The notes: a model not told the origin generated them from the sequence alone. A DNA stretch of 64,000 nt from an uncultured Candidatus Saccharibacteria bacterium (GCA_964372935.1 CAYJRF010000001.1:8993-72992), one strand, 5' to 3'; counted from the stretch's first letter, positions 27,159-47,309 are shown. Translations and numbers: made by a program.

Positions 27159-27233
27159 GCCACCTTAGCTCAGCGGAAGAGCAGCACTTTTGTAAAGTGA
27201 CGGTCGTCGGTTCGAATCCGACAGGTGGCTCCA
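27159..27233 (+). tRNA. tRNA-Thr (anticodon UGU)
   Basis: Cloverleaf with acceptor GCCACCT/AGGTGGC, D-arm GCTC-AGCGGAA-GAGC, anticodon loop TTTGTAA, T-arm GTCGG-TTCGAAT-CCGAC and an encoded CCA. The G27/A43 mismatch is also found in E. coli tRNA-Thr. Confidence 0.85.
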
Positions 27234-27330
27234 TAATTAGACTTTCCGATTTTTGACCGACGAACTGCTGGGCGGCACGAAGTGCCACCCGGTGGTTTTG
27301 TGGGGAAAATCCTCTTAGCTCGAACTTACT

Positions 27331-29094
27331 TTATGCCCCAACTCTATTTAAGTAATCCAAGCGATTTTTCTTGACGATCAAATTTTGTTGGGCCTTTATT
27401 AGCTCATCCTCAACCTTCCAAGGGCTCCCGGTTTTGTATGACTTCACCAGCTTTCCCAAGTAATCTTTCTCGCCATTATACCCGGTAAGTTCGTGGTCTA
27501 TTCTTAATATTTCATTCCTCAATTCCTTTTTCCGCCTGAATGAGAGCGCGCCGAGCTCATTAAGTTCTTCTTCGGCTTGAGCGCGTCGTGGTTCTAGATT
27601 TGCAATGGTGTTGTTTACTTCAGCAAGTCTCCTTTGGGCTTCATTTTCGCTATAAATATTTCCCCGTAGCGCTTGTTCTATAAAGACGTTCGCATCTTTT
27701 GCTTCAGATAATTTGACTTGAAGTTCTTGCGCTTCTGCCGCTACCTTAAAAATCTCGGCATTTAACTGGGCCTTTTCCTGTTCAATGGTCGCTTTTTCCC
27801 AATCTTGAATCGCTTTCATATCTTTTCGAAACTGTGCTTGTGCTCTGTCTTTTGTGTTTTTATCAGCATCACGGGAAACTATTGCGCTACCCTCATAAGC
27901 GTTCAGTTCATACCTGCCCATGTCCTGGTCAAATGATCGCCGTGAGTCCTTACTAAACCGTTGACCCAAAATGGTATCGCGGGAAAATGTAAGTCCTGAA
28001 GCGCTGGCACGCAAAAAGTTTAAGGTCCCTAAATGTTGGCGGATATAGTCGCCAACTGCGGCATCATTTTGGGGGCTACCACCAAATTCCCGATCACCGC
28101 TCGCAAGTCCTAAAAATCCTGCGGTGCCAGCCATAGTGCCGTGTTTGCCGACCAAATTTTTTAACAAAACTCCGACATACTCGTCTCTTTTAAGACCAGC
28201 CAAACTCAAAGGACCGCTTTCCGCTCCACCACCAGCTTGAGATGCAACGGCTTGAGTAACTTCTCGCATAGCTCGTTCTCTTTCCTTGGGATCTTTGATT
28301 TTATTGAATCCGCGAGCTTCAAATTCCTCTGTCAAAAAACTCTGCACCACTTGCGACATTATTTCCGTCTCTTTTGGGTCTCTCCGAACTCCCCACATCG
28401 CACATTCAACCACATTATCCCTCATCTCGTTCTCCGCTTTAGCTTCAGCAAACAGGCGTTCAATCATGTAGGGGTTAGCTTCTATATCAGCAACTTGCGC
28501 GTTAAGGTCACCCATTCCCTCTAAAAGCTTTTGGTATCTTTGAATTTGCACATCGGAAATAGATTCGGCCTTCATTGTTTCGAGTTCTTGGGTTAGTTCT
28601 CGCAGAATTTTTTCCACCTCCGACTTTTTCCCTTGAGCCTGCTTGAAAGCCCCTTTTACTTCTTCGGCAATCTCTCGTTCTTCTCTGCTTGCCATTAGGG
28701 ATTGGATTTCTGTGAGTTGGCGTTCAATCTGACCAAATTCGCCTTGCGCTTTTTGGAGTTCTGCTTCTTTAGCCGTTTGACTTTCTCTGAGTTTTTCAGA
28801 GTTAGCAATTCTTTCCTCAATGTGATACGCTCTAAGTCTGTCAACTTCAGATTGAGACGATCTTAACCCCGCCAAAGCTGATTCTCTCGGCGCTATATCT
28901 TCCTTGGCGCGAGCTTGTAGCTCTTTTTGGTGTTGTTCTTCCGCCTCCTGTTCTCTTTTCGTTTCAACTGTTTCGGCGTCTTTTCTGGCTTGTGCCGCTC
29001 TTAATTCTTCTAAGCTCAATGTCTCTGGCTCAGTTTTTTCTTGCTCTGGTGGCGCCGCCTGCGGTGGTTGGTTGAATGGATTTTCCGTGCTCAT
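27331..29094 (-). CDS. Large acidic coiled-coil protein (hypothetical)
   Basis: 587 aa, extremely E/K/Q/R-rich with heptad-like periodicity throughout and no enzymatic motifs. The gene is visibly lower in GC than its flanks. Confidence 0.6.
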   Translation of the reverse strand: MSTENPFNQPPQAAPPEQEKTEPETLSLEELRAAQARKDAETVETKREQEAEEQHQKELQARAKEDIAPRESALAGLRSSQSEVDRLRAYHIEERIANSEKLRESQTAKEAELQKAQGEFGQIERQLTEIQSLMASREEREIAEEVKGAFKQAQGKKSEVEKILRELTQELETMKAESISDVQIQRYQKLLEGMGDLNAQVADIEANPYMIERLFAEAKAENEMRDNVVECAMWGVRRDPKETEIMSQVVQSFLTEEFEARGFNKIKDPKERERAMREVTQAVASQAGGGAESGPLSLAGLKRDEYVGVLLKNLVGKHGTMAGTAGFLGLASGDREFGGSPQNDAAVGDYIRQHLGTLNFLRASASGLTFSRDTILGQRFSKDSRRSFDQDMGRYELNAYEGSAIVSRDADKNTKDRAQAQFRKDMKAIQDWEKATIEQEKAQLNAEIFKVAAEAQELQVKLSEAKDANVFIEQALRGNIYSENEAQRRLAEVNNTIANLEPRRAQAEEELNELGALSFRRKKELRNEILRIDHELTGYNGEKDYLGKLVKSYKTGSPWKVEDELIKAQQNLIVKKNRLDYLNRVGA

Positions 29095-29233
29095 ATTTAT
29101 ATGGTTTATTAATTGACTTTTTTATACTAGCATAAAACAAAGTCAACAAGCTACTTGTTAACAATTTCCGTCACAGCAAAAAAGCGAGGACGGCTCGGCA
29201 TACCTCCCCCTAACCCCCTCCTGTCGAGCCGTT

Positions 29234-29521
29234 GTGAAAATTTTGGGAGGGGTTCATGTGTCAACAGAAACAGCTCAACCAGTCGAATTGCCATCGGAAT
29301 CTCCTGAAGAAAACCCTCCTGCGACGGAAGTAAAAAAGGAGTTGCCTCAATTAAGTCCGCCTGATAATAAAGGGTGGTGGTTTCACCATTTGCCAGACGG
29401 TGGTAAGCATTCTGACAAATTAAGCAGGATGGATAGGCGCAATTATGATGCCGGAGAGCGAATCAACGTTCATTGTCAGTCATGTCCCGACAATCCGTTG
29501 GTTGGTTATTTACAAAAATAA
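29234..29521 (+). CDS. Small hypothetical protein
   Basis: 95-aa ORF in a low-GC intergenic stretch with no recognisable motifs; coding status uncertain. Confidence 0.25.
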   Translation: MKILGGVHVSTETAQPVELPSESPEENPPATEVKKELPQLSPPDNKGWWFHHLPDGGKHSDKLSRMDRRNYDAGERINVHCQSCPDNPLVGYLQK

Positions 29522-29724
29522 TTAATATATATATGTATCGACGAATTACCAGAACAATATAAAAAGGATAATTGACGCTGAGGGCAGATTTAGAAGAAAA
29601 AATCGGGTGGGAGCAAAATCAGAATCGCAGACAAGACTTTTCTGTAGTGGGGCAGCTTCCGTAGGACAGGAATTTTTGATAAAGTAAGGTTCGAGCGAAG
29701 TCATAAAGATACTCCATAAGACCG

Positions 29725-29812
29725 GCTGGGGTAGTCTAAGCGGTCAAAAGCGGTAGACTGTAAATCTACTGGCATTATGCCTTCGGGGGTTCGAATCCCT
29801 CCCCCAGCACCA
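29725..29812 (+). tRNA. tRNA-Tyr (anticodon GUA), long variable arm, anomalous D-arm
   Basis: Acceptor GCTGGGG/CCCCAGC, perfect anticodon arm GTAGA-CTGTAAA-TCTAC, variable arm GGCA-TTA-TGCC, T-arm GGGGG-TTCGAAT-CCCTC and an encoded CCA. The D region (GTCTAAGCGGTCAAAAGCG) does not form a canonical stem and contains a direct AGCGGT repeat. Confidence 0.7.
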
Positions 29813-30031
29813 CGTAGTAACTTTATCGGAATTGACTGCTCCGCGCGGGCTGGCAAATTTTTGAGCGGCGACTTATCAAAAATGATGTAAGGAAGGCGTC
29901 GCCAATCGCAGTGGCCCCATCTGCCGATTTATTTATTGAGAAACCAAGTAACAAGTTTTTGATTCACAGATAAATGGTAGTTAATTTTGCCTAATTTGGC
30001 CAGCGTTCTTTGACCGCAGAATGCCCGTTAA

Positions 30032-32227
30032 TTATAACTTCTGCTTTTTCAGCATCAGGGCGTTTAACGCCACAATGACCGTGGATAGCGACATCAATAC
30101 AGCGGCAAGGGCCGGTTGAAGAAAAATACCTTTGAACGCCAGCACGCCCGCGGCGAGGGGAATGGCGACAACATTGTAGCCCGTAGCCCAAAAAAGATTC
30201 TGAATCATTTTGCCGTAAGTCAGGCGAGACAAGCGGATGATTTTGGGAATATCGCGCGGATCGTTTTTGACCAAAACAATGCCCGCCGATTCAATCGCCA
30301 CGTTAGTCCCCGCGCCGATTGCGATGCCCAGATCGGCTTGAGTCAGCGCCGGAGCGTCATTTATGCCGTCGCCCACCATGGCAACTTTTCGGCCTTTTGA
30401 TTGGAGCATTTTTACTTTCTGCGATTTTTGGCCGGGCAATACCTTGGCATAGTACTCATCAATGTCAAGCTCTTTCGCCACCCACTGAGCAACGTCTCGG
30501 CTGTCGCCGGTAATCATGGCAGTTTTAATGCCCATGTTGCGGAGCGATTTAATGGTCTCGCGCGATTCTTCGCGAATAATGTCGGCGAGAGCGATCGCGC
30601 CGAGGAGGGATTTTCCCTTGACGGCGAATATGATCGTTTTCCCTTGCGCCGAAAGCTGGTCAATTTTAGTTTTCGTTTGATCGTCAAGAGGCAATCCCAA
30701 GTCGGTTAGCAACGTTTGGCTGCCAACTAAAACCTCCAACCCGTCTACATTGGCTCGCGCCCCTTTTCCGGCTATCCGCTGAAAATTTCTTGCCGCGGAA
30801 AGTTTGAGATTTTGTTTGTTGGCTTCGGCAACGATGGCGCGGGCGATAGGGTGTTCCGACTGACGATCCACCGAAGCGGTATACCGCAGCACAGTCGCCT
30901 CGCTTTCTTTGCCCATGGGGATAATCGCCTCGACGCCGAACTCTCCCTTGGTGAGCGTTCCGGTTTTATCAAACAGCACGATGTCAATATTGCGTGCCGC
31001 TTCAAGCGCCAACCGTTGTTTGACCAAAAAACCGTTCTGGGCCGCTTTAGTGGTCGAGATTGAAGCCACTAAGGGAATTGCCAACCCGAGGGCGTGAGGG
31101 CAAGCAATCACCAGCACGGCCACCATCCGCTCGATGGCAAACACCGGGTCCGCCAAGATAAGCCAGCTGGCTAATGTGATTGCGCCAACGGCGACGGCGA
31201 CGACAGTAAGGTAAAAGGCGGCTCTGTCGGACAATATTTGCAAGCGCGATTTGGAACTTTGGGCTTCGGCAACAAGACGCATTACCCCCGCCAAAAAAGT
31301 TTTCTCGCCAATGTTGGTGACTTTTATTTTGAGGGTGCCATCGCCGTTTATCGCTCCGGCGATCACGGCGCTCTCTGGTTTTTTGGGCACCGGTTTGGAT
31401 TCACCGGTGGCGATTGACTCGTTAACGTCGGAGATACCCTCCACCACAACTCCATCTGTCGGAATTTTTCCCCCGGGTTTTACCATCACTATGTCGCCAC
31501 TTTTAACATCAGCAAGGGGAATAATTCGCGTCTTGTCGCCTTGGATAATCTCCGCTTGATCGGGCAAGATCTTTGACAGCTCTTTTAAGGCGCCTTGGGC
31601 GTTCGAGACTGCCCGCATTTCCATCCAGTGTCCAAGAAGCATGATTGTGATCAGCGTCGCCAGTTCCCAAAAAAGAGTTTCCGTGCCTCCCGAAAGAATA
31701 GTGTAAACGCTGTAAATGTAGGCAACGGAGATGGCCAAGGAAATGAGCGTCATCATGCCGGGCAGTTTGGCTTGTAATTCCCGTCCGGCCGCGGCGATGA
31801 ACATCCAACCGCCATAGAAAAAAATGACCGAAGCGAGGATAAACGGCACATAGGTCGAGCCGGGAAATGTTGGCGCGGTAAAGTTCACCAGCTCGCGGAC
31901 GATGTTCGAGTAAAGAATCACCGGAACGGAGAGAATCAAACTGACCCAAAACTTTGTCTTGAATATATTGGTCGAATGTCCCTTGTGTTTGTCAAAGTCG
32001 TCATGATGATGACGCGTCTGTGGTTTGGCGGCAGGTACAAGCTGCATGCCACATTCCGGGCACTGCCCGTGGCTTTGACGACGAATTTCGGGATGCATGG
32101 GGCAGATGTATGTTTGCACTGGTTCGGGCATAATATCTTTCAGCGACTGGCTAGCCGCGACATTGAGCGTCGCGCGACGTTTTCCGGTGAAGCCGTTGGT
32201 TTGTTGAATTTGAGCCGCATCAACCAT
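30032..32227 (-). CDS. Heavy-metal P1B-type ATPase, CopB-like (CPH motif)
   Basis: DKTGTLT phosphorylation motif, TGES and GDGINDAP motifs and a CPH motif in TM6. The N-terminal His-rich stretch and CPMHPE...CPECGM metal-binding domain are also present. The true start may be internal, at MPEPVQ... Confidence 0.85.
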   Translation of the reverse strand: MVDAAQIQQTNGFTGKRRATLNVAASQSLKDIMPEPVQTYICPMHPEIRRQSHGQCPECGMQLVPAAKPQTRHHHDDFDKHKGHSTNIFKTKFWVSLILSVPVILYSNIVRELVNFTAPTFPGSTYVPFILASVIFFYGGWMFIAAAGRELQAKLPGMMTLISLAISVAYIYSVYTILSGGTETLFWELATLITIMLLGHWMEMRAVSNAQGALKELSKILPDQAEIIQGDKTRIIPLADVKSGDIVMVKPGGKIPTDGVVVEGISDVNESIATGESKPVPKKPESAVIAGAINGDGTLKIKVTNIGEKTFLAGVMRLVAEAQSSKSRLQILSDRAAFYLTVVAVAVGAITLASWLILADPVFAIERMVAVLVIACPHALGLAIPLVASISTTKAAQNGFLVKQRLALEAARNIDIVLFDKTGTLTKGEFGVEAIIPMGKESEATVLRYTASVDRQSEHPIARAIVAEANKQNLKLSAARNFQRIAGKGARANVDGLEVLVGSQTLLTDLGLPLDDQTKTKIDQLSAQGKTIIFAVKGKSLLGAIALADIIREESRETIKSLRNMGIKTAMITGDSRDVAQWVAKELDIDEYYAKVLPGQKSQKVKMLQSKGRKVAMVGDGINDAPALTQADLGIAIGAGTNVAIESAGIVLVKNDPRDIPKIIRLSRLTYGKMIQNLFWATGYNVVAIPLAAGVLAFKGIFLQPALAAVLMSLSTVIVALNALMLKKQKL

Positions 32228-32409
32228 AATTGTACCATCAACCTAGTCTTTTATCCCTTTTAACTGGCAACAGTGGCGTCGGCCGCGTCCGACTGGGCGC
32301 CAGCCTTTTTTTTTGGTACAATTTCCGTGATAATCGCTCTAGGTTGGCTTAATATGTCGAGCGATAAAAAATCGCCGGTTGACGACAGGCCGATGGAGCG
32401 ACCGCCCGC

Positions 32410-32484
32410 GCCCACGTAGCTCAGCGGTAGAGCAACTCCATGGTAAGGAGTAGGTCGGCGATTCAAATTCGCCCGTGGGCTCCA
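32410..32484 (+). tRNA. tRNA-Thr (anticodon GGU)
   Basis: Acceptor GCCCACG/CGTGGGC, D-arm GCTC-AGCGGTA-GAGC, anticodon arm ACTCC-ATGGTAA-GGAGT, T-arm GGCGA-TTCAAAT-TCGCC, discriminator T and an encoded CCA. Confidence 0.85.
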
Positions 32485-32503
32485 CAGAAAGGAAATACTT
32501 CTT

Positions 32504-32665
32504 ATGGCCAAAACTAAAGTTCATCAAGCGATTATGGAGTGCTCGGTTTGCGGCGAGCGTAATTATCACACCAAACGCAACGTCAACAATATTAAGGAGC
32601 GTTTGGTGTTAAAAAAACATTGCCCAAAATGCCGCAAACATACCGAACACGCCGAAACTAAGTAA
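32504..32665 (+). CDS. rpmG: 50S ribosomal protein L33
   Basis: 53-aa ORF not in the supplied track: MAKTKVHQAIMECSVCGERNYHTKRNVNNIKERLVLKKHCPKCRKHTEHAETK, matching the L33 pattern with two CxxC pairs. RBS AGAAAGGAAA lies upstream. Confidence 0.8.
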   Translation: MAKTKVHQAIMECSVCGERNYHTKRNVNNIKERLVLKKHCPKCRKHTEHAETK

Positions 32666-32714
32666 CTGGCGATTCGGCGTTGGGCAAGGTTTGCCGTTTG
32701 TGATTGTGATTCAC

Positions 32715-32785
32715 GGGGGGTGCGCTGGGCGCGGGAGGGTCTCCAAAACCCACCTCGAAGCGTTCGATCCGCTTACCCCCTGCCA
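32715..32785 (+). tRNA. tRNA-Trp-like (anticodon CCA) with truncated D-arm; possibly a pseudogene or non-canonical tRNA
   Basis: Acceptor GGGGGGT/ACCCCCT (one G-U pair), canonical Trp anticodon loop CTCCAAA on a GGGT/ACCC stem, T-arm AAGCG-TTCGATC-CGCTT, discriminator G and an encoded CCA. Only 14 nt (GCGCTGGGCGCGGG) lie between the acceptor and anticodon stems, so the gene is 71 nt. The 3' end overlaps the start of repeat R1. Confidence 0.45.
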
Positions 32786-32830
32786 AAGAAACCTAGGAAT
32801 CGAACCATAAAAAGAGAACCGTCCCCAATT
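32780..32830 (+). repeat. 51-bp intergenic direct repeat R1, copy a
   Basis: ctgccaaagaaaCctaggaatcgaaccataaaaagagaaccgtccccaatt, repeated at 33374..33424 with a single mismatch. Confidence 0.9.
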
Positions 32831-32878
32831 CGAGAACAATTCGAGAAGCCATGTTCGAACATCCTCGACAATGGCCCC

Positions 32879-32917
32879 TAACCCAGTAAGCAGCAGAGCG
32901 GCTACTTTTTTGGTATA
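32879..32917 (+). repeat. 39-bp direct repeat R2 (hairpin plus T-run plus TATA-like box), copy a
   Basis: taacccagtaagcagcagagcggctacttttttggtata is identical at 34435..34473 and degenerate at 33519..33552. In all three copies it sits 20-25 bp upstream of an ORF start. It contains an imperfect hairpin AGCAGC-AGA-GCGGCT followed by T6 and GGTATA. Confidence 0.85.
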
Positions 32918-32937
32918 GTTGTTGAAACGGAGGTTGT

Positions 32938-33357
32938 ATGTCAGAGCATCTATCACCGAACGATGAATACGCAAATTGGACAGCTCCAGACCCTTCTCCA
33001 CAAAGCGAGCGTCCTGGCGGTGAATTACATACCCGGCCAATTCAAGGATCGGACGGACAGTGGCAGGATGGGTATGGCAATAGAATATCGGAAACAGAAG
33101 CTAGGGATATTGATTACGCAACCCGATTCTGGCGCCAGCAACCCGCAGGACAAAAGCAAGCAATGCAAGAAATAATTCAAAATCAGGTAGAATTGGGCAA
33201 ATTTAGCTTATTTGTTAGCCCATCGGGGATAAGCGAGGGAGATGAGGAAAAACTTTCTGCTTATCGTCTGTTAGCACGAGAAATGGGGTATGAGATTGGT
33301 TCGTTTCATTTTAACCCAAACGCTCACACAGTCACTGCCGAAATAAAAACATTCTAG
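32938..33357 (+). CDS. Hypothetical protein (cassette ORF 1)
   Basis: 139-aa acidic ORF with a good RBS (ACGGAGG) and no recognisable motif; followed by motif R3 (ctccacgatggcc) and repeat R1b. Confidence 0.45.
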   Translation: MSEHLSPNDEYANWTAPDPSPQSERPGGELHTRPIQGSDGQWQDGYGNRISETEARDIDYATRFWRQQPAGQKQAMQEIIQNQVELGKFSLFVSPSGISEGDEEKLSAYRLLAREMGYEIGSFHFNPNAHTVTAEIKTF

Positions 33358-33373
33358 CGTTCTCCACGATGGC

Positions 33374-33424
33374 CTGCCAAAGAAATCTAGGAATCGAACC
33401 ATAAAAAGAGAACCGTCCCCAATT
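33374..33424 (+). repeat. 51-bp direct repeat R1, copy b
   Basis: ctgccaaagaaaTctaggaatcgaaccataaaaagagaaccgtccccaatt; 50 of 51 bp identical to copy a. Confidence 0.9.
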
Positions 33425-33452
33425 GCCTTGCAATTGCCTTGCAATTGCCTTG
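33420..33452 (+). repeat. Tandem repeat, 3 x 11 bp (caattgccttg)
   Basis: Three perfect head-to-tail copies immediately after R1b. Confidence 0.9.
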
Positions 33453-33560
33453 GATTGGCGGTAACCGAATTACTATCTAACCGATACCCTTGCGGTAACC
33501 TTCTTTTCTATCTAATGCGAGTAAGCAGCATAGCGGTTGCTTTTTTGGTATTGTGCAAGA

Positions 33561-34376
33561 ATGATAAAAATTCAAGCGAGTGGTGAAATTCAACCATTAG
33601 ACATTGATGGCTATATTATTAATACCAGCTCTCTGGATAAGATAGTTCCACCTTGGAAAGAAGCAATTGAAGACGTTTGCCAGACATATATCAAAAAGTT
33701 TGGTGAGGGGCTACATAGCATTTATTTGCGTGGTTCGGTTCCTAGTGGAAAAGCAATAGATGGAATCTCGGATTTAGATTCAATTGTGATTATTAAAGCT
33801 GATCATTCAGACTCGGTTGACCTTTCGTGGTTTAATGATTTTGCTGAGACGCTCATTATTAAATATCCATACGTGAGCGAACTTGAATTACTATGGGTAA
33901 ACTATGCTAGCTTACTCAACCCGGATAAGTTAACAAATGTACGTATCCAGCTGGCTATCTATGGCTTGTGCATCTATGGCGAAGACATTATTCCACAGTT
34001 ACCAAAATTTAAACCAGGACGCGACACTATTATTCATGCGCCATGTATTGATAAACAGATTGATGAAGCGATCGAAAAGATTAAACTGCGCGACACATCG
34101 GATGGGGTAAAGGGAGCTTGTACTTGGATCATGAAATCATTTCTACGAGTGGGTTGTGAGCTGGTGATGGAACGCGAACATGTATATACGCGCGACCTTT
34201 ATTGGTGTTATAAGTTATTCGCTCAATACTATCCAGGTACAGCAGATGCTATGTATCAGGTGCTCGATTATGCACTTAACCCAATTGACGATCGAGAAAA
34301 GTTAAGCTCATTTGTAAAAGATTTTGGATTTTGGCTTAGTCAAGAAGTAAAAGCACAAGGATTGGTTAGAAAATAG
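33561..34376 (+). CDS. AadA/ANT(3'')-ANT(9)-like nucleotidyltransferase (Pol-beta NTase domain plus DUF4111-like C-terminal domain)
   Basis: N-terminal NTase motif LRGSVPSGKAIDGISDLDSIVII (G[GS]...DhD). The C-terminal region (VKGACTWIMKSFLRVG...DLYWCYKLFAQYYP) parallels the AadA C-terminus (VVLTLSRIWYSAVTG...ADWAMERLPAQYQP). The gene is strongly low-GC and begins at ATG 33561; the computed ORF begins at an upstream TTG. Confidence 0.6.
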   Translation: MIKIQASGEIQPLDIDGYIINTSSLDKIVPPWKEAIEDVCQTYIKKFGEGLHSIYLRGSVPSGKAIDGISDLDSIVIIKADHSDSVDLSWFNDFAETLIIKYPYVSELELLWVNYASLLNPDKLTNVRIQLAIYGLCIYGEDIIPQLPKFKPGRDTIIHAPCIDKQIDEAIEKIKLRDTSDGVKGACTWIMKSFLRVGCELVMEREHVYTRDLYWCYKLFAQYYPGTADAMYQVLDYALNPIDDREKLSSFVKDFGFWLSQEVKAQGLVRK

Positions 34377-34434
34377 GTTCGAACATTGTCGGCGATCCTC
34401 CGCCGTTAAAACTTCGGAAGGACAAGTGGTCTGA

Positions 34435-34473
34435 TAACCCAGTAAGCAGCAGAGCGGCTACTTTTTTGGTATA
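34435..34473 (+). repeat. 39-bp direct repeat R2, copy c
   Basis: Identical to 32879..32917; ends 8 bp before the ATG of the next ORF. Confidence 0.9.
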
Positions 34474-34481
34474 ACACGGAC

Positions 34482-34949
34482 ATGGAAGGTGATCCCAAAA
34501 AACCGATTCCAATTTTATATGACACGTATCTTGCGGTTATTAAAAATGGCGTCGAATCAAAAATGTTCCGTCATTTTTATGCTTATGTCGACGGCAACAA
34601 GGTGGATATTGTAAAGGGCGGGGAGTTAGCTTGTGGTTTTTTTGTTTCGTTCGTCCTCCACAATTTTAAGCTAATAGGCGAGCCTCATTTAACTGTGGCC
34701 GGCACAGAGAAAGATCTCCAAGAATTGGGTTGGCAAGAAATTGGTAGAGATAATCTTAAAGAAGGATGTGTCTTAATCTGGCAGAGTGAGGCCTCTGATG
34801 CCGACGCCCACAAACATATTGGATTCTATATCGGGAACGACCGAGCAGTGAGTACAGATTCCAAGCTGGGAGTTGTTTCCGAGCATCACTTTACTTTTAA
34901 TAACAGCCGACCAATCGAAAAGGCGTATTGGTTCGAACAATTGAAATAA
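34482..34949 (+). CDS. Putative papain-fold hydrolase, NlpC/P60-like (cassette ORF 3)
   Basis: Cys in GGELACGFFVSFV, then about 60 aa later HIGFYIGNDRAVS...EHH, resembling the NlpC/P60 Cys...H(V/I)GIY(I/V)GNG...H arrangement. Low GC; followed by motif R3 (ctccacgatggcc). Confidence 0.35.
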   Translation: MEGDPKKPIPILYDTYLAVIKNGVESKMFRHFYAYVDGNKVDIVKGGELACGFFVSFVLHNFKLIGEPHLTVAGTEKDLQELGWQEIGRDNLKEGCVLIWQSEASDADAHKHIGFYIGNDRAVSTDSKLGVVSEHHFTFNNSRPIEKAYWFEQLK

Positions 34950-35077
34950 GAATCGTCCTAGCGGCCTCCACGATGGCCCGGTAAAGAAAAAAGCGGCTCA
35001 TGGCCTTAGGGGGCTTGCCGAGATGATGATTCAAGAATTACGCTAAAAACTAATGACATCCCACCAAAAGAAGCAAA

Positions 35078-35109
35078 TTACAATTAATACTTATTACAAT
35101 TAATACTTA
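35078..35109 (+). repeat. Tandem repeat, 2 x 16 bp (ttacaattaatactta)
   Basis: Two perfect copies in the AT-rich spacer after the cassette array. Confidence 0.85.
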
Positions 35110-35128
35110 CAATGCCGCCGCGACGGCG

Positions 35129-35404
35129 TTGGCAAAAAAATATCGCGCTATCGGTTCTCGCCGACAAGACGTCGAACGGGTGATGAATTACGTCAGCGCG
35201 ACCAATCCGAAAGTAGTCGAGTTGGGCAGTGCAGGTCAAGTGGTTGATGGGGCTCGGCATTGTTCCGAATGCGGGATGCTCCTCGCCTTCGGAAGAGACT
35301 TTTTTCCGCTAGGCGAGTCGGTGCCGCTTGCGCGCAGCAGTCCTCCGGCGGGAAAGCGACGGGCGAAGGCAGAAAAGAATATGCCCACGGACGACGACGA
35401 CTGA
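35129..35404 (+). CDS. Hypothetical protein (TTG start), doubtful
   Basis: 91-aa ORF with a non-ATG start and a single CxxC pair. GC jumps sharply here; coding status uncertain. Confidence 0.2.
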   Translation: MAKKYRAIGSRRQDVERVMNYVSATNPKVVELGSAGQVVDGARHCSECGMLLAFGRDFFPLGESVPLARSSPPAGKRRAKAEKNMPTDDDD

Positions 35405-35690
35405 TGCCGCGCCCGTAACAACCGACAGCCTGCGGCTCGCTCGCGCCCGCTATTCATCAAACAAGAATATTGGGCGTTTTTTTAAATTTTTAGGAAAGTG
35501 ATTGTCGAAAACGAGGCGGGAGGCACTCGCCTATCTGTTCATGACTCCCCCCTTTCGCCTAAAGGTTACCAAAACGAGGGGAGTTTGTCATGGTAGAGTT
35601 GCGGTCTTTCCCCTTTGCTCGTGGGGCGTGTCTTGCTTCTCGGTTGACGACAATCCGGACTTAAAAAGTCCTTGCCGGGCGACGGGCAAG

Positions 35691-35712
35691 AAAAAAGGAG
35701 CCGATTGGCTCC
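35691..35712 (-). terminator. Rho-independent terminator for the 35730..36170 minus-strand gene
   Basis: On the minus strand: ggagcc-aatc-ggctcc followed by TTTTTT, about 20 nt after the stop codon. Further small hairpins lie beyond (ggactt-aaaa-agtcc, cttgccg-ggcga-cgggcaag). Confidence 0.6.
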
Positions 35713-35729
35713 AAAGTGCCGTATGTCCT

Positions 35730-36170
35730 TTACGGAGCGGGGCGTAGGGCGCGGATCGCCGCAGTTACGTCTCTCACTCCCCGCCGAAACCACGGTTGAC
35801 CGAAGAAGGGCGGTCGGAAGCGTCCTTTCCGGTAAAGAAAGCGAACAGGTGATCCGCCATTGCCGGCGATCAGGATCGGCCCGGTTCCTCCCGCGACGGG
35901 ATAGACATCGATAACATTGCCCATCGCGGTGCGCATCCACGAGTGTTGGTAGTTGGGATAATAGTAGCCGTCAACTACCTCAAGGTTGTGGTCTCGATAC
36001 ACGCGAGCGATGGCGCGAACAAGCATATGGCACGAAACTTCTTGAGGGTATCCCCACTGATCGCGCTTTATGCTTATTTCCGGAAGCTGCTCTAAGATTG
36101 CAGCCAATTCCGTGACTAACTCACGTTCAGCAGCGGTTACCGCCCCCTCACGGACAGCGTAGGGTACCAT
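35730..36170 (-). CDS. Hypothetical protein
   Basis: 146 aa with GAGGAGA RBS upstream of the ATG, GC-rich, no recognisable motif (contains GNGGSP and YYYPNYQHSW). Confidence 0.5.
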   Translation of the reverse strand: MVPYAVREGAVTAAERELVTELAAILEQLPEISIKRDQWGYPQEVSCHMLVRAIARVYRDHNLEVVDGYYYPNYQHSWMRTAMGNVIDVYPVAGGTGPILIAGNGGSPVRFLYRKGRFRPPFFGQPWFRRGVRDVTAAIRALRPAP

Positions 36171-36430
36171 GACTTTCTCCTCGTAAAGATCGTGCGATAA
36201 AGATCGCCTGCAGTATACATCGACACGACTGCTAGTGAAAACATGCGGTAGGTGGGGGAACTTGCCGATTGGCAGAGGAGGATATTTGCTGGTCAGGCAG
36301 TCTAACTGGAGGATACGGAAAATTATCTGGCCGCTCTCCGCTCTATCTCGACACCGAAATAATTCTGAACCGAGAAAAGCGGCGGTTCCATCAGATAGTC
36401 ATCCACCTGATGGAACCGGCTGATTAACAT

Positions 36431-36727
36431 CTAGCCGCCGCTGGGGTGGCGAGATGTCAAGAGGTAGTTGTGGGCGGTTTTCAACGCCCACACGCCGAGA
36501 ATCGGTGTCACCAAAAACATCCAGGCCACGAACATGATGCACGGCACTGGTGGGGGCGTGATCCCACCGAACACCGCCTGCTTCGCCAGCATCGCCGCCT
36601 GCCATGAGGCGGCGAGAACGGTGAACATACTGGCCGCCAGGATACCATCATCCTTTCGTGCCACCCCGCATATCAGCAGGGCGCCGAAGGACAACACCAC
36701 GAGGTGCATGGCCAGAAGGCCGAACAT
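36431..36727 (-). CDS. Small membrane protein (3 predicted TM helices)
   Basis: Start at ATG 36727 preceded by GAGGAGGAGGGG; hydrophobic helices MFGLLAMHLVVLSFGALLICGV, ILAASMFTVLAASWQAAML and IMFVAWMFLVTPILGVWAL. Confidence 0.5.
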   Translation of the reverse strand: MFGLLAMHLVVLSFGALLICGVARKDDGILAASMFTVLAASWQAAMLAKQAVFGGITPPPVPCIMFVAWMFLVTPILGVWALKTAHNYLLTSRHPSGG

Positions 36728-41841: not shown

Positions 41842-42092
41842 AGCAATCGGATATGATTTCCGCAATAACTTTTGTTGTTTGCGTCGTTGGCTTGTTGGGC
41901 TACGTCGTGTATTACGCTTCGCCGCGCGAGCCGGGGAGCGTGGCCGAAGAAGCGAATGTGCCGTTTGGGACGATTGACACCGGCATTCTCGACAGTCGGC
42001 TGATTAAGGAAGTGCAGAGTTATCGGACATTTGGCCAACCACCGATTGTCGGCAATACTCCTTCCCAACGCGATAACCCCTTCGGGCCGTAA
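41838..42092 (+). CDS. Small membrane protein of the pilus locus (PilP-like?)
   Basis: 84 aa with one TM helix (ISAITFVVCVVGLLGYVVYY) and a 4-nt overlap with the pilO-like gene. Confidence 0.3.
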   Translation: MKQSDMISAITFVVCVVGLLGYVVYYASPREPGSVAEEANVPFGTIDTGILDSRLIKEVQSYRTFGQPPIVGNTPSQRDNPFGP

Positions 42093-42105
42093 TATTTCCC
42101 ACGTT

Positions 42106-43701
42106 ATGACACATTCTTCGCAGACAGCAACTTTGGCCAAGCCGTCAGTTCAGGGACGGGTTGATTTGGATAACGAAACTATCTCACTGGCTACCCTGCT
42201 GGAGTTGCCTCAAGAGACGGCGAGTGGTTATCGGGCGGTGTTGTTTCGCGAGCGGACAGACAAGAAAACGAAAGAGCGCGTTATATCGCTGGCGGTGGAC
42301 GACCCGTCAAGCGAAGCGATTGGCCGATTGGTCGGTTTTCTCGAGCACAATAATAAAGTTAAGGTTGAATTATACGAGGCGTCTCGCGATGCCATTGACG
42401 CGCAGTTGGCGCGATATCTCGGAGCCGAAACATCGCCGGATGCCAACGAGAGTTCTTCAATCGCCTCGCGCCAGTCGGCGGTTGAATCGGTGGGCGAGCT
42501 GGAAGCGGTCGTCCAGTCGGCCGTTGTGCCCAACATTATCAACGCGATTATTTTCTTTGCTCGGTCGCGCAAAGCGTCCGATATTCACATCGAACCGATG
42601 GCTGAAACGGTTCAAGTGCGTTATCGTATCGACGGAAGCCTAACGACGGTGTTGGCGATTCCGCGCTATTTTCGCCACGCCTTGATTTCGCGGATCAAGA
42701 TTCTCGCGGGGATGAAAATTGACGAACAGCGAATTCCCCAAGACGGGCGCTTTGAATTCGATCACCAGGGTCACAGCATTGACATTCGCGTCGCGACGTT
42801 ACCGACGGTTCACGGCGAAAAAGTGGAAATGCGGCTCTTGGATAAAGATGCCGGGATTCTTACTCTGGAACAACTGGGCATTACCGGAAACAGTTACGAC
42901 GCGGTCGTGCGGGCGATATCTAAACCGTACGGGATTATTTTTGCCACTGGCCCGACCGGCAGCGGCAAATCAACCACCCTTTACGCCATCTTGAATCGAA
43001 TTGCCAAGCCCAACACCAACGTCGTTACTCTCGAAGATCCGGTGGAGTACGAAATTGCCGGCGCCAACCAAAGTCAGGTCAATCCCAATATCGGCTACAC
43101 CTTTGCCGAGGGATTGCGGGCGGTGTTGCGCCAAGACCCGAATATTATCATGGTGGGCGAGGTGCGCGATCAGGAAACGGCTGGCATGGTGACCCACGCC
43201 GCTTTAACCGGCCACTTGGTGCTGACAACCCTTCACACCAACGACTCGGCCGGCGCCTTGCCTCGTTTGACTAACATGGGAGTAGAGCCCTATCTGCTCA
43301 CATCGTCCATTAACGCCATCATCGCCCAAAGGTTGGCGCGCAAGTTGTGCATCGCCTGTCGCCAGCAGGTGGAATTGCCCCCGGCATTAATCGACAACGT
43401 TCGTTCCGAACTGGGACAACTGAAAAATTTTCCCCAACGAGATCAGTCAAGTTTCACTTTCTACCAAGCTGTCGGTTGCGGTGAGTGTACCGACGGCTAT
43501 GCCGGCAGGATTGGATTGTTTGAAGTTCTCGTTCCCGACGAGACGATTGAACAACTTGCCCTGGTCAAACAGTCGGCCAGCGCCATCGCTCAAGCGGCCC
43601 GCGTCGCTGGCATGATCACCTTAAAACAAGACGGCATCCTCAAAGCCCTGAAGGGGATTACTTCAATCGACGAGGTCTTGCGCGTGACGACCGAAGAGTA
43701 A
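42106..43701 (+). CDS. pilB: Type IV pilus assembly ATPase PilB (GspE family)
   Basis: Walker A GPTGSGKST, Asp and His boxes, a tetracysteine CxxC...CxxC motif and an N-terminal GSPII_E N-domain. Confidence 0.85.
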   Translation: MTHSSQTATLAKPSVQGRVDLDNETISLATLLELPQETASGYRAVLFRERTDKKTKERVISLAVDDPSSEAIGRLVGFLEHNNKVKVELYEASRDAIDAQLARYLGAETSPDANESSSIASRQSAVESVGELEAVVQSAVVPNIINAIIFFARSRKASDIHIEPMAETVQVRYRIDGSLTTVLAIPRYFRHALISRIKILAGMKIDEQRIPQDGRFEFDHQGHSIDIRVATLPTVHGEKVEMRLLDKDAGILTLEQLGITGNSYDAVVRAISKPYGIIFATGPTGSGKSTTLYAILNRIAKPNTNVVTLEDPVEYEIAGANQSQVNPNIGYTFAEGLRAVLRQDPNIIMVGEVRDQETAGMVTHAALTGHLVLTTLHTNDSAGALPRLTNMGVEPYLLTSSINAIIAQRLARKLCIACRQQVELPPALIDNVRSELGQLKNFPQRDQSSFTFYQAVGCGECTDGYAGRIGLFEVLVPDETIEQLALVKQSASAIAQAARVAGMITLKQDGILKALKGITSIDEVLRVTTEE

Positions 43702-43707
43702 CCGACA

Positions 43708-44769
43708 ATGGCAAACCCCCAAGAATATTTTCGCGACCTAGTTGCCACCGCCCAGAACCAGCGGGCAAGCGACATTCATTTGATTAGCGATTCTCCGCCG
43801 ATTATTCGCCGCGATGGCCGCTTGTATTCGGTTGGTCAGCCGTTGCATTCCCAGCACGTGGCCGAAATTTTAAGCGCCATTCTCCCGCCGGAGCGTTACG
43901 CCCAGCTGGTTCAAAAGCGCGAGCTGGACTTTTCTTTTGCCTATAACGGTTTGCGTGTCCGGGGCAACGCCTATTTCGAAAAGAATAATCCGGCAACGTC
44001 GTTGCGCCTGATTTCGCCCGAGGTGCCCACGCCGGACAATCTTGGGTTGCCCGAGGTTCTGTTGAATTTCACCAACACTTCTCAAGGCTTGGTCTTAATT
44101 ACCGGTCCGACGGGACACGGCAAGTCTACCACCATGGCGGCCTTAGTTGAGCGGATTAATGCCAGTCAAACCAAGCACATCATTACTCTGGAAGACCCGA
44201 TTGAGTTTGTGTTTAAGCCTCAAAAGTCGATTATTTCTCAGCGCGAAGTTGGGAGCGACACGCTTAGCTTTTCGGCTGGTCTGCGCGCCGCCTTGCGCGA
44301 AGATCCAGACATTATCATGGTGGGCGAAATGCGCGACCTCGAAACGATCGAAACCGCCCTCACTTTGGCGGAAACCGGGCATTTGGTGATGGCGACCATG
44401 CATACCAACTCGGCCGCTCAAACCGCCGATCGGATTATCGACGTCTTCCCCGGCCACAAGCAGCCCCAGATTCGTCTCCAGCTCGCCAGCGTGTTGGTCG
44501 GCGTTATTTCTCAGCGGCTTCTGCCGCGGATTGGTGGTGGGCGGGTGCTGGCGGCCGAGATTTTGGTGGCGACACCGGCGGTGCGTAATCTGATTCGCGA
44601 AGGCAATATCTTCCAAATCCCAAACGTCATTCAAACCAGCGCCGCCGACGGCATGGTGGGCTTGGACGGCAAGTTGTCCCAATTGGTTAGCCAAGGGATG
44701 ATAACTCTCGATGAAGCCCTAATTTGGTCTCTCGACCCGAAAAGTCTCAAAATGCAACTGTACCATTAG
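43708..44769 (+). CDS. pilT: Twitching-motility/retraction ATPase PilT
   Basis: Walker A GPTGHGKST, about 350 aa and no N-terminal extension; PilT-type AIRNLIRE motif. Confidence 0.85.
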   Translation: MANPQEYFRDLVATAQNQRASDIHLISDSPPIIRRDGRLYSVGQPLHSQHVAEILSAILPPERYAQLVQKRELDFSFAYNGLRVRGNAYFEKNNPATSLRLISPEVPTPDNLGLPEVLLNFTNTSQGLVLITGPTGHGKSTTMAALVERINASQTKHIITLEDPIEFVFKPQKSIISQREVGSDTLSFSAGLRAALREDPDIIMVGEMRDLETIETALTLAETGHLVMATMHTNSAAQTADRIIDVFPGHKQPQIRLQLASVLVGVISQRLLPRIGGGRVLAAEILVATPAVRNLIREGNIFQIPNVIQTSAADGMVGLDGKLSQLVSQGMITLDEALIWSLDPKSLKMQLYH

Positions 44770-44772
44770 CCC

Positions 44773-45834
44773 ATGTCGTTTTCCAGTTTGTCGCTATTTG
44801 GCCGTGTCAGCCCGCGATCGCGGGCGAATTTGACGCGACAACTGGCGATTATTATTTCGAGCGGCTTGCCGGTGGCGACGGCGCTCCAAATGGTGTCCCA
44901 ACAGACTGGGGAACCTCGGCTAAAGGCGGCCCTAATCGTGATGACCCGCGACGTGGAACAAGGTCAGGCGTTTTCCGCCGCCGCCGCCCGATTTCCCGAG
45001 TTGTTCAGCGAGGTGATGATCGCCATGTTACGGAGCGGCGAGGCCTCCGGCCAGCTGGAGACTGTCTTTCCCCAGATTGCCGAAATCGCCGAAAAACAGC
45101 TCGATCTCCTTACAAGACTGCGCAACGCCTTAATCTATCCGGCGTTCGTGGCAGTAGTGGTGGTTATCGTGGCGATTATTACCACCGTGGTGATCATCCC
45201 GCGACTTACCGAGGTGTTTGACGCCTTGGCGGGTGATTTGCCCTGGAGCACGCGTATTTTGATCGCTTCAAGCCGGATTGTTCTTAACTATTGGTACATA
45301 ATTCTGGCGGTAGGTGGGGCGACGATCTTTTTTCTTCAGGCTTATTTGCGAACGGACGATGGGCGGGAGGTAATCTATCTGTTAGAGCGACAGGTGCCCC
45401 TCGTTCGGGACTATGCCGCGAACGTTCAATTGGTCCGATTTGCCATGATTTTCTCGATGTTAATCCGAGCCGGAGTAACTTTGCCCGAGGCCCTGCGCTT
45501 GGTTGGCACCACCGCGACCACTCCCGCCTGGTCGAGGGCTTTTGGCAATGTTCGCCGCGAGGTGGAGCGCGGTGTCGGGTTGGCGGCGGCGATGAGTCGT
45601 CATGACGTCTTCCCCAAGAATCTGACGCAAATGGTGGCCGTTGGCGAGCAAACCGGCACGCTGGTTAAAGTTTTGGAAACCCTTGCCGTGGCTTACGAGG
45701 AACAAATGAATAACGACCTCAAGGCATTAACCTCACTCCTCGAGCCAACGATAATTCTCATCGTCGCGATGGGCGTCGGTTTTGTGGTGATTTCGATTAT
45801 TTTGCCGATTTATCGCGTGGCCCAATATTTGTGA
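44773..45834 (+). CDS. pilC: Type IV pilus platform protein PilC (GspF family)
   Basis: Two GspF repeats with 3 TM helices; typical position after pilB/pilT. Confidence 0.8.
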   Translation: MSFSSLSLFGRVSPRSRANLTRQLAIIISSGLPVATALQMVSQQTGEPRLKAALIVMTRDVEQGQAFSAAAARFPELFSEVMIAMLRSGEASGQLETVFPQIAEIAEKQLDLLTRLRNALIYPAFVAVVVVIVAIITTVVIIPRLTEVFDALAGDLPWSTRILIASSRIVLNYWYIILAVGGATIFFLQAYLRTDDGREVIYLLERQVPLVRDYAANVQLVRFAMIFSMLIRAGVTLPEALRLVGTTATTPAWSRAFGNVRREVERGVGLAAAMSRHDVFPKNLTQMVAVGEQTGTLVKVLETLAVAYEEQMNNDLKALTSLLEPTIILIVAMGVGFVVISIILPIYRVAQYL

Positions 45835-45882
45835 CTCACCGAGACCGATTGACAGACCAACAATAATTGCTACGATGAAAAC

Positions 45883-46383: not shown

Positions 46384-46404
46384 AAACAGAGCGGCCTAGG
46401 TCCC

Positions 46405-47238: not shown

Positions 47239-47309
47239 ATGGTGGCGTGACTGATTGTTGGCCGCGTCTCAAGCCGCCAAGGTAAGTGTGAATTTGAAAC
47301 TATGGAGGG

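What the first reader, a model, noticed from the sequence alone, without database searches (positions are those of the whole stretch)
32666..35130. Cassette-like array: three unrelated low-GC ORFs, each bracketed by the same short intergenic modules, beside tRNA-Thr/rpmG/tRNA-Trp-like
Seen in sequence: a 51-bp element (R1) occurs at 32780 and 33374 with one mismatch. A 39-bp element (R2: imperfect hairpin plus T6 plus GGTATA) occurs identically at 32879 and 34435 and degenerately at 33519. Each R2 copy lies 8-25 bp upstream of an ORF start. A 13-bp motif (ctccacgatggcc) follows the stops of ORF1 and ORF3, and two perfect tandem repeats (3x11 bp, 2x16 bp) sit in the spacers. The three ORFs (139-aa unknown, AadA-like nucleotidyltransferase, NlpC/P60-like) are unrelated to each other and markedly AT-richer than the flanking core genes. 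Inference: repeated terminator-promoter-like modules between independently acquired genes, next to a tRNA cluster, resemble a gene-cassette or integration hotspot. No integrase is present in the window, so this could be a sedentary cassette array, a novel mobile arrangement or a lineage-specific repeat family.
Basis: partly seen in the sequence, partly recalled or inferred. Interest (0 to 1): 0.8.

Follow-up and report, generated by a model that had tools for sequence, protein, structure and literature searches.

The report
Accessory-gene islet beside tRNA-Trp
A 2.3-kb patch of foreign, AT-rich DNA sits directly after a tRNA-Trp gene and holds three unrelated genes separated by copies of one short terminator-plus-promoter linker; it resembles a gene-cassette array but lacks the defining parts of an integron.

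Summary
The repeats are real, at the stated coordinates, and occur nowhere else in the 64-kb window. All four spacers are versions of one bipartite linker of about 75 nt. Its second half is R2: a terminator hairpin, a T-run and an extended -10 box. The ATG lies 6 nt after the -10 box for ORF2 and ORF3, which suggests leaderless mRNAs.

The three ORFs are unrelated and strongly atypical (GC3 0.34-0.42 against 0.61 for core genes). Their closest homologues lie in 42-46% GC contigs that carry the same linker family. One of these contigs (L107) starts with rpmG and tRNA-Trp, followed by at least 20 small accessory genes. Its D-box is 24/28 identical to the window's, although the L33 proteins are only 51% identical.

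I found no attC-like fold, no integrase in the window, and no phage or plasmid match.

Best reading: an imported accessory-gene islet at a tRNA-Trp hotspot, reshuffled by recombination between its own linkers. Identity blocks end at CCTGCCA, TTTTTTGGTATA and GAAATAA. A site-specific cassette system anchored on tRNA-Trp is not excluded (about 0.2).

The parts
32410..32484 (+). tRNA-Thr(GGU), left neighbour in the conserved tRNA/rpmG cluster; preceded by T9+GGTACAAT at 32306
32504..32665 (+). rpmG (ribosomal protein L33)
   Evidence: Pfam PF00471 E 4e-18
32715..32785 (+). tRNA-Trp(CCA)-like gene with a shortened acceptor/D-arm region; its 3' end CCTGCCA is the left border of the islet
   Evidence: ARAGORN; not found by Rfam tRNA; alignment with 6 other tRNA-Trp genes
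32779..32830 (+). R1a, a 52-nt direct repeat (last 7 nt of the tRNA plus 45 nt)
32826..32847 (+). perfect tandem repeat 2 x CAATTCGAGAA
32847..32920 (+). complete linker: D-box (D6a, 32852-32878, GTTCGAACATCCTCGACAATGGCCCC) followed by R2a (32879-32917: decayed hairpin, T6, TGGTATAGT)
   Evidence: linker profile E 1e-19; alignment with L107; hairpin only -4.9 kcal/mol
32938..33357 (+). ORF1, 139 aa, unknown function, GGAGG Shine-Dalgarno; small family with a 65% homologue on L104
33340..33385 (+). D-box D3a (28-nt core 33352-33379, contains the 13-mer); overlaps the last codons and stop of ORF1 and ends in CCTGCCA
33373..33424 (+). R1b, 51/52 identical to R1a; with R1a it brackets a 594-bp one-gene unit
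33420..33452 (+). perfect tandem repeat 3 x CAATTGCCTTG (palindromic GCAATTGC)
33514..33552 (+). R2b, 79% copy: hairpin -7.7 kcal/mol, T6, TGGTATTGT; the ORF2 ATG lies 6 nt after the -10 box
33561..34376 (+). ORF2, 271 aa, two-domain nucleotidyltransferase with an ANT(3'')/AAD(9)-like fold
34371..34473 (+). linker with about 35 nt inserted: D-box D6b (34376-34400) ... R2c (34435-34473, identical to R2a); the ORF3 ATG lies 6 nt after the -10 box
34482..34949 (+). ORF3, 155 aa, weak NlpC/P60-type hydrolase similarity; homologues of 74%, 65% and 60% identity on L107, L106 and L105
34943..34989 (+). D-box D3b plus a degenerate R1 start (CCCGGTAAAGAAA); its 5' part looks like a remnant of an ORF1-type 3' end (GAAATAAGAATCGTCCTAG)
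35077..35113 (+). perfect tandem repeat 2 x ATTACAATTAATACTT and the right border of the low-GC segment (GC rises after about 35113)

Best explanation
The stretch from 32786 to about 35113 is a small island of horizontally acquired, low-GC DNA. It is inserted exactly at the 3' end of tRNA-Trp in the conserved tRNA-Thr/rpmG/tRNA-Trp cluster and holds three unrelated single-gene transcription units.

All four spacers are versions of one bipartite linker of about 75 nt. The first half is a D-box that starts at or over the stop codon of the gene before it. The second half is R2: an intrinsic-terminator hairpin, a T-run and an extended -10 promoter (TGGTATAnT). R2 starts transcription 6 nt before the ATG of ORF2 and ORF3 (leaderless) and 18 nt before that of ORF1, which has a Shine-Dalgarno sequence.

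This linker is the standard gene separator of a low-GC gene pool, probably Patescibacteria-like. One member of that pool (L107) has the same chromosomal address, rpmG-tRNA-Trp, followed by at least 20 small accessory genes.

The islet was imported from that pool and then rearranged by recombination between the linkers themselves. These would be short-homology or microhomology crossovers, including Campbell-type insertion of a circle through the 52-nt R1. No dedicated site-specific recombinase is needed.

Shown here: the repeats, the foreign composition, the shared linker family and shared locus, and the absence of attC-like folds and of an integrase in the window. Inferred: terminator and promoter function, leaderless starts, direction of transfer, and the recombination mechanism.
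For: Composition. ORF1-3 have GC3 of 0.34-0.42, against 0.61 +/- 0.04 for core genes. This matches L107 genes (0.40), while the ORFs downstream (35.1-40.7 kb) are host-like.

Source pool. The closest homologues of each ORF (65-74% identity) lie on 42-46% GC contigs in different, non-syntenic contexts. The GCAGC..GCTGCTTTT terminator occurs only in the array and in those contigs (L003, L103/L107, L104, L105), among 950 kb of fetched DNA.

Linker function. The T-run plus G-TA-A-T box followed by ATG 6-7 nt later recurs at 0.4-0.5 per kb in L103 and L105, against 0.06 per kb in the window. The hairpins in L107 fold at -11 to -14 kcal/mol (z -2.8 to -3.9). R2a and R2c share the same decayed stem (-4.9 kcal/mol), so they are copies of each other.

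Shared locus and linker. L107 begins with rpmG and tRNA-Trp, then the gene array. Full-length linker matches are found at window 32847 and 34371 and at L107 1040, 1738 and 2344. The D-box is 24/28 identical between the window and L107, although the L33 proteins are 51% identical.

Junctions at microhomologies. R1 starts at CCTGCCA, which is shared by the tRNA 3' end and the D-box ends. The R2a/R2c identity ends inside the -10 box, after which each ORF has its own native 5' end, as seen in L104 and L103. The ORF3 stop joins an ORF1-type tail at GAAATAA.

DNA uptake and processing. DprA, RecJ, RecR and type IV pilus genes are in the window.
Against: Only two genomes share the locus, and a third contig (L003) carries a diverged D-box. 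The same address in distant genomes, D-boxes at the ends of the first two units after the tRNA in both, and the D-box's resemblance to the tRNA-Trp 3' part would equally fit a site-specific system. The rest of the 107-kb contig and of the genome could not be read, so a recombinase or further linker copies elsewhere are not excluded. R1 has no copy outside the window. The D-box has no assigned function and no conserved structure. Promoter, terminator and leaderless status are untested predictions. The simple promoter scan did not flag R2, because it requires a -35 box.
Confidence: 0.5

Rival explanations
1. A site-specific, integron-like cassette system anchored on tRNA-Trp. The tRNA 3' end (..CCTGCCA) would act as the chromosomal attachment site. 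Each mobile unit would carry a D-box as its own tRNA-like site, and a recombinase encoded elsewhere would insert new units next to the tRNA, pushing older ones outward.
For: Arrays start at rpmG-tRNA-Trp in two genomes whose L33 proteins are only 51% identical. D-boxes ending in CTGCCA close the first two units after the tRNA in both genomes. The tRNA-proximal unit has the best-preserved flanking repeats (R1a/R1b 51/52), while the distal copy is decayed. The D-box resembles tRNA-Trp more than other tRNAs (z up to 6.5, against less than 2.6). The D-box is conserved at 24/28 across genomes despite having no structure.
Against: No recombinase was found in the 64-kb window, and none among the called genes of the 11.7-kb L107 contig as annotated. 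Most of the 20 or more genes on L107 are not bounded by D-boxes. A diverged D-box on L003 has no tRNA within 8 kb. The 5' part of the D-box at ORF1 is native ORF1 coding sequence. The tRNA similarity allows two incompatible alignments. The unit between D3a and D3b holds two genes.
Confidence: 0.2
2. The decayed remnant of a larger integrative element (prophage, ICE or island) that once integrated at tRNA-Trp. Only a few moron-like genes and att-type direct repeats would now remain.
For: The islet is adjacent to a tRNA. The direct repeats include the tRNA 3' end. The composition is foreign. ORF3 gives weak hits to a phage-type peptidoglycan hydrolase family (Amidase_5). Each gene has its own promoter and terminator.
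Against: No similarity to phage, plasmid or viral collections. No integrase or structural genes. The repeat covers only 7 nt of the tRNA. Homologues of the ORFs sit in chromosomal accessory-gene arrays, not in phage contexts.
Confidence: 0.1
3. A vertically inherited, lineage-specific variable region. The genes would be resident, and the repeats would result from local tandem duplication and divergence of one spacer.
For: The interleaved repeat order (R1, D, R2, gene, D, R1...) can be derived from a segmental duplication followed by a deletion. Perfect tandem repeats show active local slippage.
Against: GC3 is 4-6 SD below the core genes. The linkers are absent from the other 61 kb of the window. 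ORF1 and ORF3 occupy equivalent frames but are unrelated. Nucleotide-level linker conservation with a genome whose L33 is only 51% identical argues for transfer.
Confidence: 0.08
4. A classical integron cassette array without an integrase (CALIN).
For: Unrelated small genes on one strand with repeated elements between them. The gene types in the related arrays (GNAT, glyoxalase/Ble, DUF1801, MazG) are typical of cassette arrays. ORF2 has the AadA fold.
Against: No attC-like hairpin on either strand. No R''/R' core pair in the sequence. Promoters lie in front of each gene. No IntI was found.
Confidence: 0.03

Closest known systems
Integron cassette arrays / CALINs (clusters of attC sites lacking an integrase)
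   Same: Co-oriented, unrelated small accessory genes are separated by a repeated element that can overlap the 3' end of the upstream ORF. Gene repertoires in the related arrays are similar. The best-preserved (apparently newest) unit lies next to a fixed anchor.
   Different: The spacer is not an attC. It has no long imperfect palindrome and no R''/R' cores. It carries a terminator and a promoter, so the genes are self-expressed. The anchor is a tRNA gene rather than attI. No IntI is present.
tRNA-linked genomic islands or islets made by tyrosine integrases
   Same: Foreign DNA lies immediately 3' of a tRNA gene and is bounded by direct repeats that include the tRNA 3' end. Several units lie in tandem.
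   Different: No integrase is present. The repeat shares only 7 nt with the tRNA plus 45 nt of downstream flank. The units are 0.6-1.6 kb and hold one or two genes.
Putative mobile promoters / promoter propagation (Matus-Garcia et al. 2012, PMC3488235)
   Same: Near-identical promoter-bearing sequence lies upstream of non-homologous genes, with non-homologous genes upstream of it (R2a/R2c before ORF1 and ORF3).
   Different: The identical block is 39 nt, below that study's criterion of at least 50 nt at 80% identity. Here the promoter is fused to a terminator and a D-box as a complete gene separator, and it is shared between distant genomes at one locus.
Phage morons and conserved boundary (linker) sequences of mosaic phage genomes
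   Same: Self-contained promoter-gene-terminator units of deviant base composition. Short conserved boundary sequences act as crossover points for module exchange.
   Different: The context is chromosomal, with no phage genes, and there are no hits in phage or viral collections.
Homology-facilitated illegitimate recombination in naturally transformable bacteria (from my own knowledge: de Vries and Wackernagel 2002; Prudhomme et al. 2002)
   Same: Foreign DNA is joined at 3-12-nt microhomologies next to a conserved anchor. Competence-type genes (DprA, type IV pilus) are present in the window.
   Different: Transformation is not demonstrated here. The anchor and the donor are inferred only.

Membership tests
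Integron / CALIN | attC sites: 55-140-nt imperfect inverted repeats (R''-L''...L'-R') that fold as a single-stranded hairpin with extrahelical bases | tested here: not met
   ssDNA folds of all four spacers on both strands give z from -0.06 to +0.9. Only the stretch with the palindromic 11-mer repeat reaches z -2.7. No RYYYAAC...GTTRRRY pair was seen on reading the sequence.
Integron / CALIN | IntI tyrosine recombinase with attI and Pc next to the array (not required for a CALIN) | tested here: not met
   Pfam scans of 43 window ORFs (those of at least 180 aa judged likely genes, plus the ORFs next to the array) found no recombinase. The rest of the genome could not be read.
Integron / CALIN | A score above threshold with IntegronFinder's attC covariance model | not testable with these tools
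   That model is not in Rfam. An Rfam scan of 31500-36500 found only tRNA-Thr.
Integron / CALIN | Cassettes mostly promoterless and expressed from a common Pc | tested here: not met
   Each ORF is preceded by a T-run plus an extended -10 box at a fixed 6-nt (ORF2, ORF3) or 18-nt (ORF1) distance, as in L103 and L105. This is a prediction, not a measurement.
tRNA-targeting integrative island | Integrase gene at one end of the island | tested here: not met
tRNA-targeting integrative island | Direct repeats made of the 3' part of the target tRNA gene at both island ends | tested here: inconclusive
   R1 shares only CCTGCCA with the tRNA. The D-box upstream of R1b and R1c resembles tRNA-Trp (z up to 6.5), but with gaps and two alternative alignments.
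tRNA-targeting integrative island | Composition foreign to the host | tested here: met
   GC is 0.43 against 0.54; GC3 z is -4.4 to -6.2.
Putative mobile promoter (PMC3488235) | At least 50 nt at 80% identity or more upstream of non-homologous CDSs, with non-homologous upstream CDSs | tested here: not met
   R2a/R2c is 39/39 identical and then diverges. The extension to the D-box needs a 32-nt gap and is 75% identical. The gene-content conditions are met.
Intrinsic terminator | GC-rich hairpin directly followed by a T-run | tested here: inconclusive
   R2b passes the scan and folds at -7.7 kcal/mol. R2a and R2c have a decayed stem (-4.9 kcal/mol, z -0.6). Relatives on L107 fold at -11 to -14 kcal/mol.
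Dispersed intergenic repeat (REP/BIME/MITE type) | Many copies scattered over the genome, often with terminal inverted repeats | tested here: not met
   No copy outside the array in 64 kb. The rest of the genome was not available.

The most novel reading that the evidence does not exclude
The tRNA-Trp 3' end and the D-box are partner sites of an undescribed site-specific gene-capture system in uncultivated low-GC, Patescibacteria-like bacteria. It would stack self-expressed (terminator plus leaderless promoter) one-gene units behind tRNA-Trp. Functionally this would be an 'integron' built on a tRNA gene, with a non-attC site and a recombinase acting in trans.
Probability: 0.2. Interest if true: 0.8.

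Novelty: new variant of a known kind. Interest (0 to 1): 0.5.

Why it matters
If the linker-recombination reading is right, accessory genes in small, uncultivated genomes travel as ready-to-run units that carry their own terminator and leaderless promoter. They accumulate at a conserved tRNA/ribosomal-protein locus, and the stereotyped separators double as crossover points. This would give cassette-like gene turnover without an integron. The linker profile is also a practical marker for finding such arrays and tracing gene flow between distant lineages. If the site-specific reading is right instead, this would be a new class of gene-capture system.

Tried and rejected
1. I looked for close relatives through the neighbouring L33 gene. 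Genome and metagenome collections gave only relatives of 60% identity or less, and none shares the array.
2. The R2 pattern found nothing in viral or JGI metagenome contigs, and the R1 pattern found nothing in viral contigs.
3. The D-box core gave 17 viral hits. That is about the number I estimate by chance, all lie in high-GC sequence, and none shows flanking similarity.
4. Searches of phage and plasmid collections with the whole region found no match.
5. Exact-protein look-ups returned only two short unitigs identical to ORF2, which end inside R2 copies.
6. A cluster link (P0047, loci L005 and L006) proved unrelated to the window.
7. The attC hypothesis was rejected on folding and core motifs.
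8. The D-box and the whole linker as a structured RNA were rejected. Only the terminator stem is predicted, and the D-box shows no covariation.
9. R1 as an antisense tRNA fragment (GGTTCGATTCC on the minus strand) was rejected, because there is no matching T-stem and the element order is wrong (reading).
10. D3 as a simple contiguous copy of the tRNA 3' end was rejected, because it is 5 nt too long and does not fold as a T-arm.
11. ORF2 as a recognised resistance gene was rejected at sequence level (no NCBIfam or Pfam hit). Only the fold is shared.
12. No fold match was found for ORF1.


Full report
OBSERVATION.
- R1 is a 52-nt direct repeat at 32779-32830 and 33373-33424, with one mismatch.
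- R2 is 39 nt, identical at 32879 and 34435 and 79% identical at 33514.
- The 13-mer CTCCACGATGGCC follows the stops of ORF1 and ORF3.
- None of these elements occurs elsewhere in the 64-kb window with up to 3 mismatches, and chance expectation is about zero.
- They are the only high-identity non-coding repeats in the window.
- The three ORFs show no similarity to each other.

SETTING. The array begins at the last base of a tRNA-Trp-like gene. Upstream lie rpmG and tRNA-Thr(GGU), and further upstream tRNA-Tyr and tRNA-Thr(UGU). This tRNA/rpmG cluster is compact in Armatimonadota, Anaerolineae and Saccharibacteria loci. Here, and in Gottesmanbacteria loci, it is split by inserted genes. nusG, which in my experience usually lies (with secE) just after tRNA-Trp, is 22.6 kb away. 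The region is therefore a place where genes accumulate.

The tRNA-Trp copy is odd. It is about 5 nt short at the acceptor/D-arm junction and the Rfam tRNA model does not detect it.

THE ISLET IS FOREIGN. The array has 42.6% GC, against 54% on both sides. GC3 of ORF1-3 is 0.37, 0.34 and 0.42, against 0.61 +/- 0.04 for 28 core genes. The unannotated ORFs just downstream are host-like.

Each ORF is a real gene with homologues:
- ORF2 belongs to a nucleotidyltransferase family. Its model (pLDDT 96) best matches AAD(9)/AadA at fold level only.
- ORF3 belongs to a family with weak NlpC/P60 similarity. Some more distant members (about 48% identity) are named Azambacteria and Vogelbacteria by their sources.
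- ORF1 belongs to a small family of unknown fold.

The closest homologues (65-74% identity) lie on contigs of 42-46% GC. On those contigs they are not neighbours of each other.

WHAT THE MODULES ARE. Comparison with those contigs resolves the spacers into one bipartite linker of about 75 nt.

The 3' half is R2: an A-tract, a GCAGC..GCTGC hairpin, T5-6 and G-TATA-T.
- In L103/L107 and L105 the hairpins are strong (-11 to -14 kcal/mol).
- In those loci the -10 box is followed after 6-7 nt by ATG in most copies. This is the geometry expected for leaderless mRNAs.
- ORF2 and ORF3 have exactly this 6-nt spacing.
- ORF1 has an 18-nt leader with GGAGG, and its homologue on L104 has the same arrangement.
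- This terminator type occurs only in the array and in the contigs that hold the ORF homologues, among 950 kb of fetched DNA from many phyla.

The 5' half is a D-box. Its consensus is roughly GTTCkAAC or TTCTAgCG, then rTCCTCsAyrATGsmCyGCCA.
- It starts at or over the upstream stop codon.
- The GTTCGAACAT boxes at 32852 and 34376 are variants of it.
- A profile built from four full linkers finds full-length copies at window 32847 and 34371 (the latter with an insertion) and at L107 1040, 1738 and 2344. It finds half-copies at window 33347, 33519 and 34950, and nothing else in the window at E<1.
- No secondary structure beyond the terminator stem is supported.

THE SAME ADDRESS IN A DISTANT GENOME. 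Reading the whole 11.7-kb contig (L107) showed that it starts with rpmG and a normal tRNA-Trp. These are followed by at least 20 small, mostly co-oriented, unrelated accessory genes, including GDSL, AAA_18, OmdA, a racemase, RibD_C, three DUF1801 genes, glyoxalase/Ble and the ORF3 homologue. D-boxes close the first two units after the tRNA.

The L33 proteins of the two genomes are only 51% identical. Even so, the 28-nt D-box core is 24/28 identical, and the linker upstream of ORF3 is orthologous to the one upstream of its L107 homologue. Non-coding DNA this similar between such distant genomes argues for horizontal movement of the array DNA.

HOW THE ARRAY WAS PUT TOGETHER (inference). The blocks of identity end at short sequences shared by otherwise different partners.
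- R1 begins at CCTGCCA. This is both the end of tRNA-Trp and the conserved end of the D-box in both genomes.
- R2a and R2c are identical up to TTTTTTGGTATA. They then continue into the native 5' ends of ORF1 and ORF3, judged against L104 and L103.
- The ORF3 stop is joined at GAAATAA to a tail that matches the native 3' end of ORF1-type genes.
- R2a and R2c share the same decayed hairpin, so one is a copy of the other made within this lineage.
- The ORF1 unit (594 bp) is flanked by 51/52-identical R1 copies. That is what a single crossover between a circle and the chromosome would produce.

I therefore favour recombination between the stereotyped linkers. This could be short-homology RecA events or microhomology-mediated joining, acting on DNA imported from a gene pool that uses the same linkers. 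Competence-type genes (DprA, RecJ, RecR, type IV pilus) are in the window, but uptake itself is not shown.

RIVALS.
- A site-specific system anchored on tRNA-Trp is the serious alternative (about 0.2). It would explain the shared address, the D-boxes next to the tRNA, the better preservation of the tRNA-proximal repeats, and the D-box's resemblance to tRNA-Trp (z 6.5 and 4.3 against the L107 tRNA-Trp, below 2.6 for non-Trp tRNAs). Against it: no recombinase in 64 kb, most L107 genes lack D-boxes, a diverged D-box on L003 has no tRNA nearby, part of the D-box at ORF1 is native coding sequence, and the tRNA alignment is ambiguous.
- A classical integron or CALIN fails its defining tests.
- A decayed prophage or ICE has no support from phage, plasmid or viral searches.
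- Vertical inheritance with local duplication conflicts with the composition and with the cross-genome linker identity.

VERDICT.

It is a new variant of known kinds (tRNA-linked islet, promoter propagation, moron-like units). Its notable feature is a conserved bipartite linker shared across distant genomes at the same rpmG-tRNA-Trp address.

The main limits are these. Only two to three genomes carry the linker in the data I could reach. The remainder of the source genome was not readable. All functional assignments of the linker are predictions.

Noticed in passing
window 32715-32785: The tRNA-Trp(CCA) gene lacks about 5 nt at the acceptor/D-arm junction relative to six other tRNA-Trp genes. 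Its anticodon is at position 29, it does not fold as a cloverleaf by minimum free energy, and the Rfam tRNA model misses it at E<=1. It may be a pseudogene or an unusual tRNA.
   Followed up: partly
window 27159-32785: The ancestral cluster tRNA-Thr(UGU), tRNA-Tyr, tRNA-Thr(GGU), rpmG, tRNA-Trp is split by a 587-aa ORF with no family hit and foreign composition (27331-29094, minus strand, GC3 0.40, z -4.9) and by a P-type ATPase (30032-32227). Gottesmanbacteria loci L008, L023 and L029 show similar splitting.
   Followed up: partly
window 55416-56033: nusG lies 22.6 kb downstream of tRNA-Trp instead of next to it. In between are the islet, about 6 kb of ORFs with no Pfam hit but host-like GC3 (35.1-41 kb), type IV pilus genes (42-50 kb), IleRS and RodA.
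   Followed up: partly
window 32826-32847, 33420-33452, 35077-35109: Three perfect tandem repeats, all containing CAATT, sit at module junctions. They include the two best-scoring tandem repeats of the whole window. The 3x11 repeat forms the palindrome GCAATTGC. Their cause (slippage, protein-binding sites or junction scars) is unknown.
   Followed up: partly
window 32853, 34377, 34931: The 8-nt palindrome GTTCGAAC occurs three times in 2.3 kb, against 0.017 per kb in 951 kb of window and fetched loci together. Two copies start D-boxes and one lies inside the 3' end of ORF3.
   Followed up: partly
L001 (Logan ERR4904390), equivalent to window 33491-34464: Unitigs identical to ORF2 end inside R2 copies, as expected at a repeat. 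One of them starts at window 33491, where no long repeat exists. This may mark a variant junction in the sampled population.
   Followed up: no
L107 1-11709; L105 1-12468: Long arrays of small, unrelated accessory genes (GNAT, glyoxalase/Ble, DUF1801, OmdA, MazG, CYTH, RibD_C, UDG and others). Most have a -10 box 6-7 nt from the ATG. On L107 the GDSL lipase gene appears split into 110-aa and 86-aa pieces.
   Followed up: partly
window 58190-59248, 11880-13553, 61556-62260, 42031-50317: DprA, RecJ, RecR and a type IV pilus gene set are present. These are competence-type DNA uptake and processing functions and are relevant to how foreign DNA could enter.
   Followed up: no
L003 3229-3269: A diverged D-box (TTCTAACATTCTCTATGACGCAGAGCCA) sits directly at the stop codon of a 329-aa gene, on the contig that holds the 67% homologue of ORF2. 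No tRNA lies within its 8.4 kb.
   Followed up: partly
window 33351-33380, minus strand: The reverse complement of D3a reads as a good sigma-70-type promoter (TTGGCA, 18 nt, TAGAAT; 10 of 12 matches) pointing into the 3' end of ORF1. The other D-box copies match less well.
   Followed up: no
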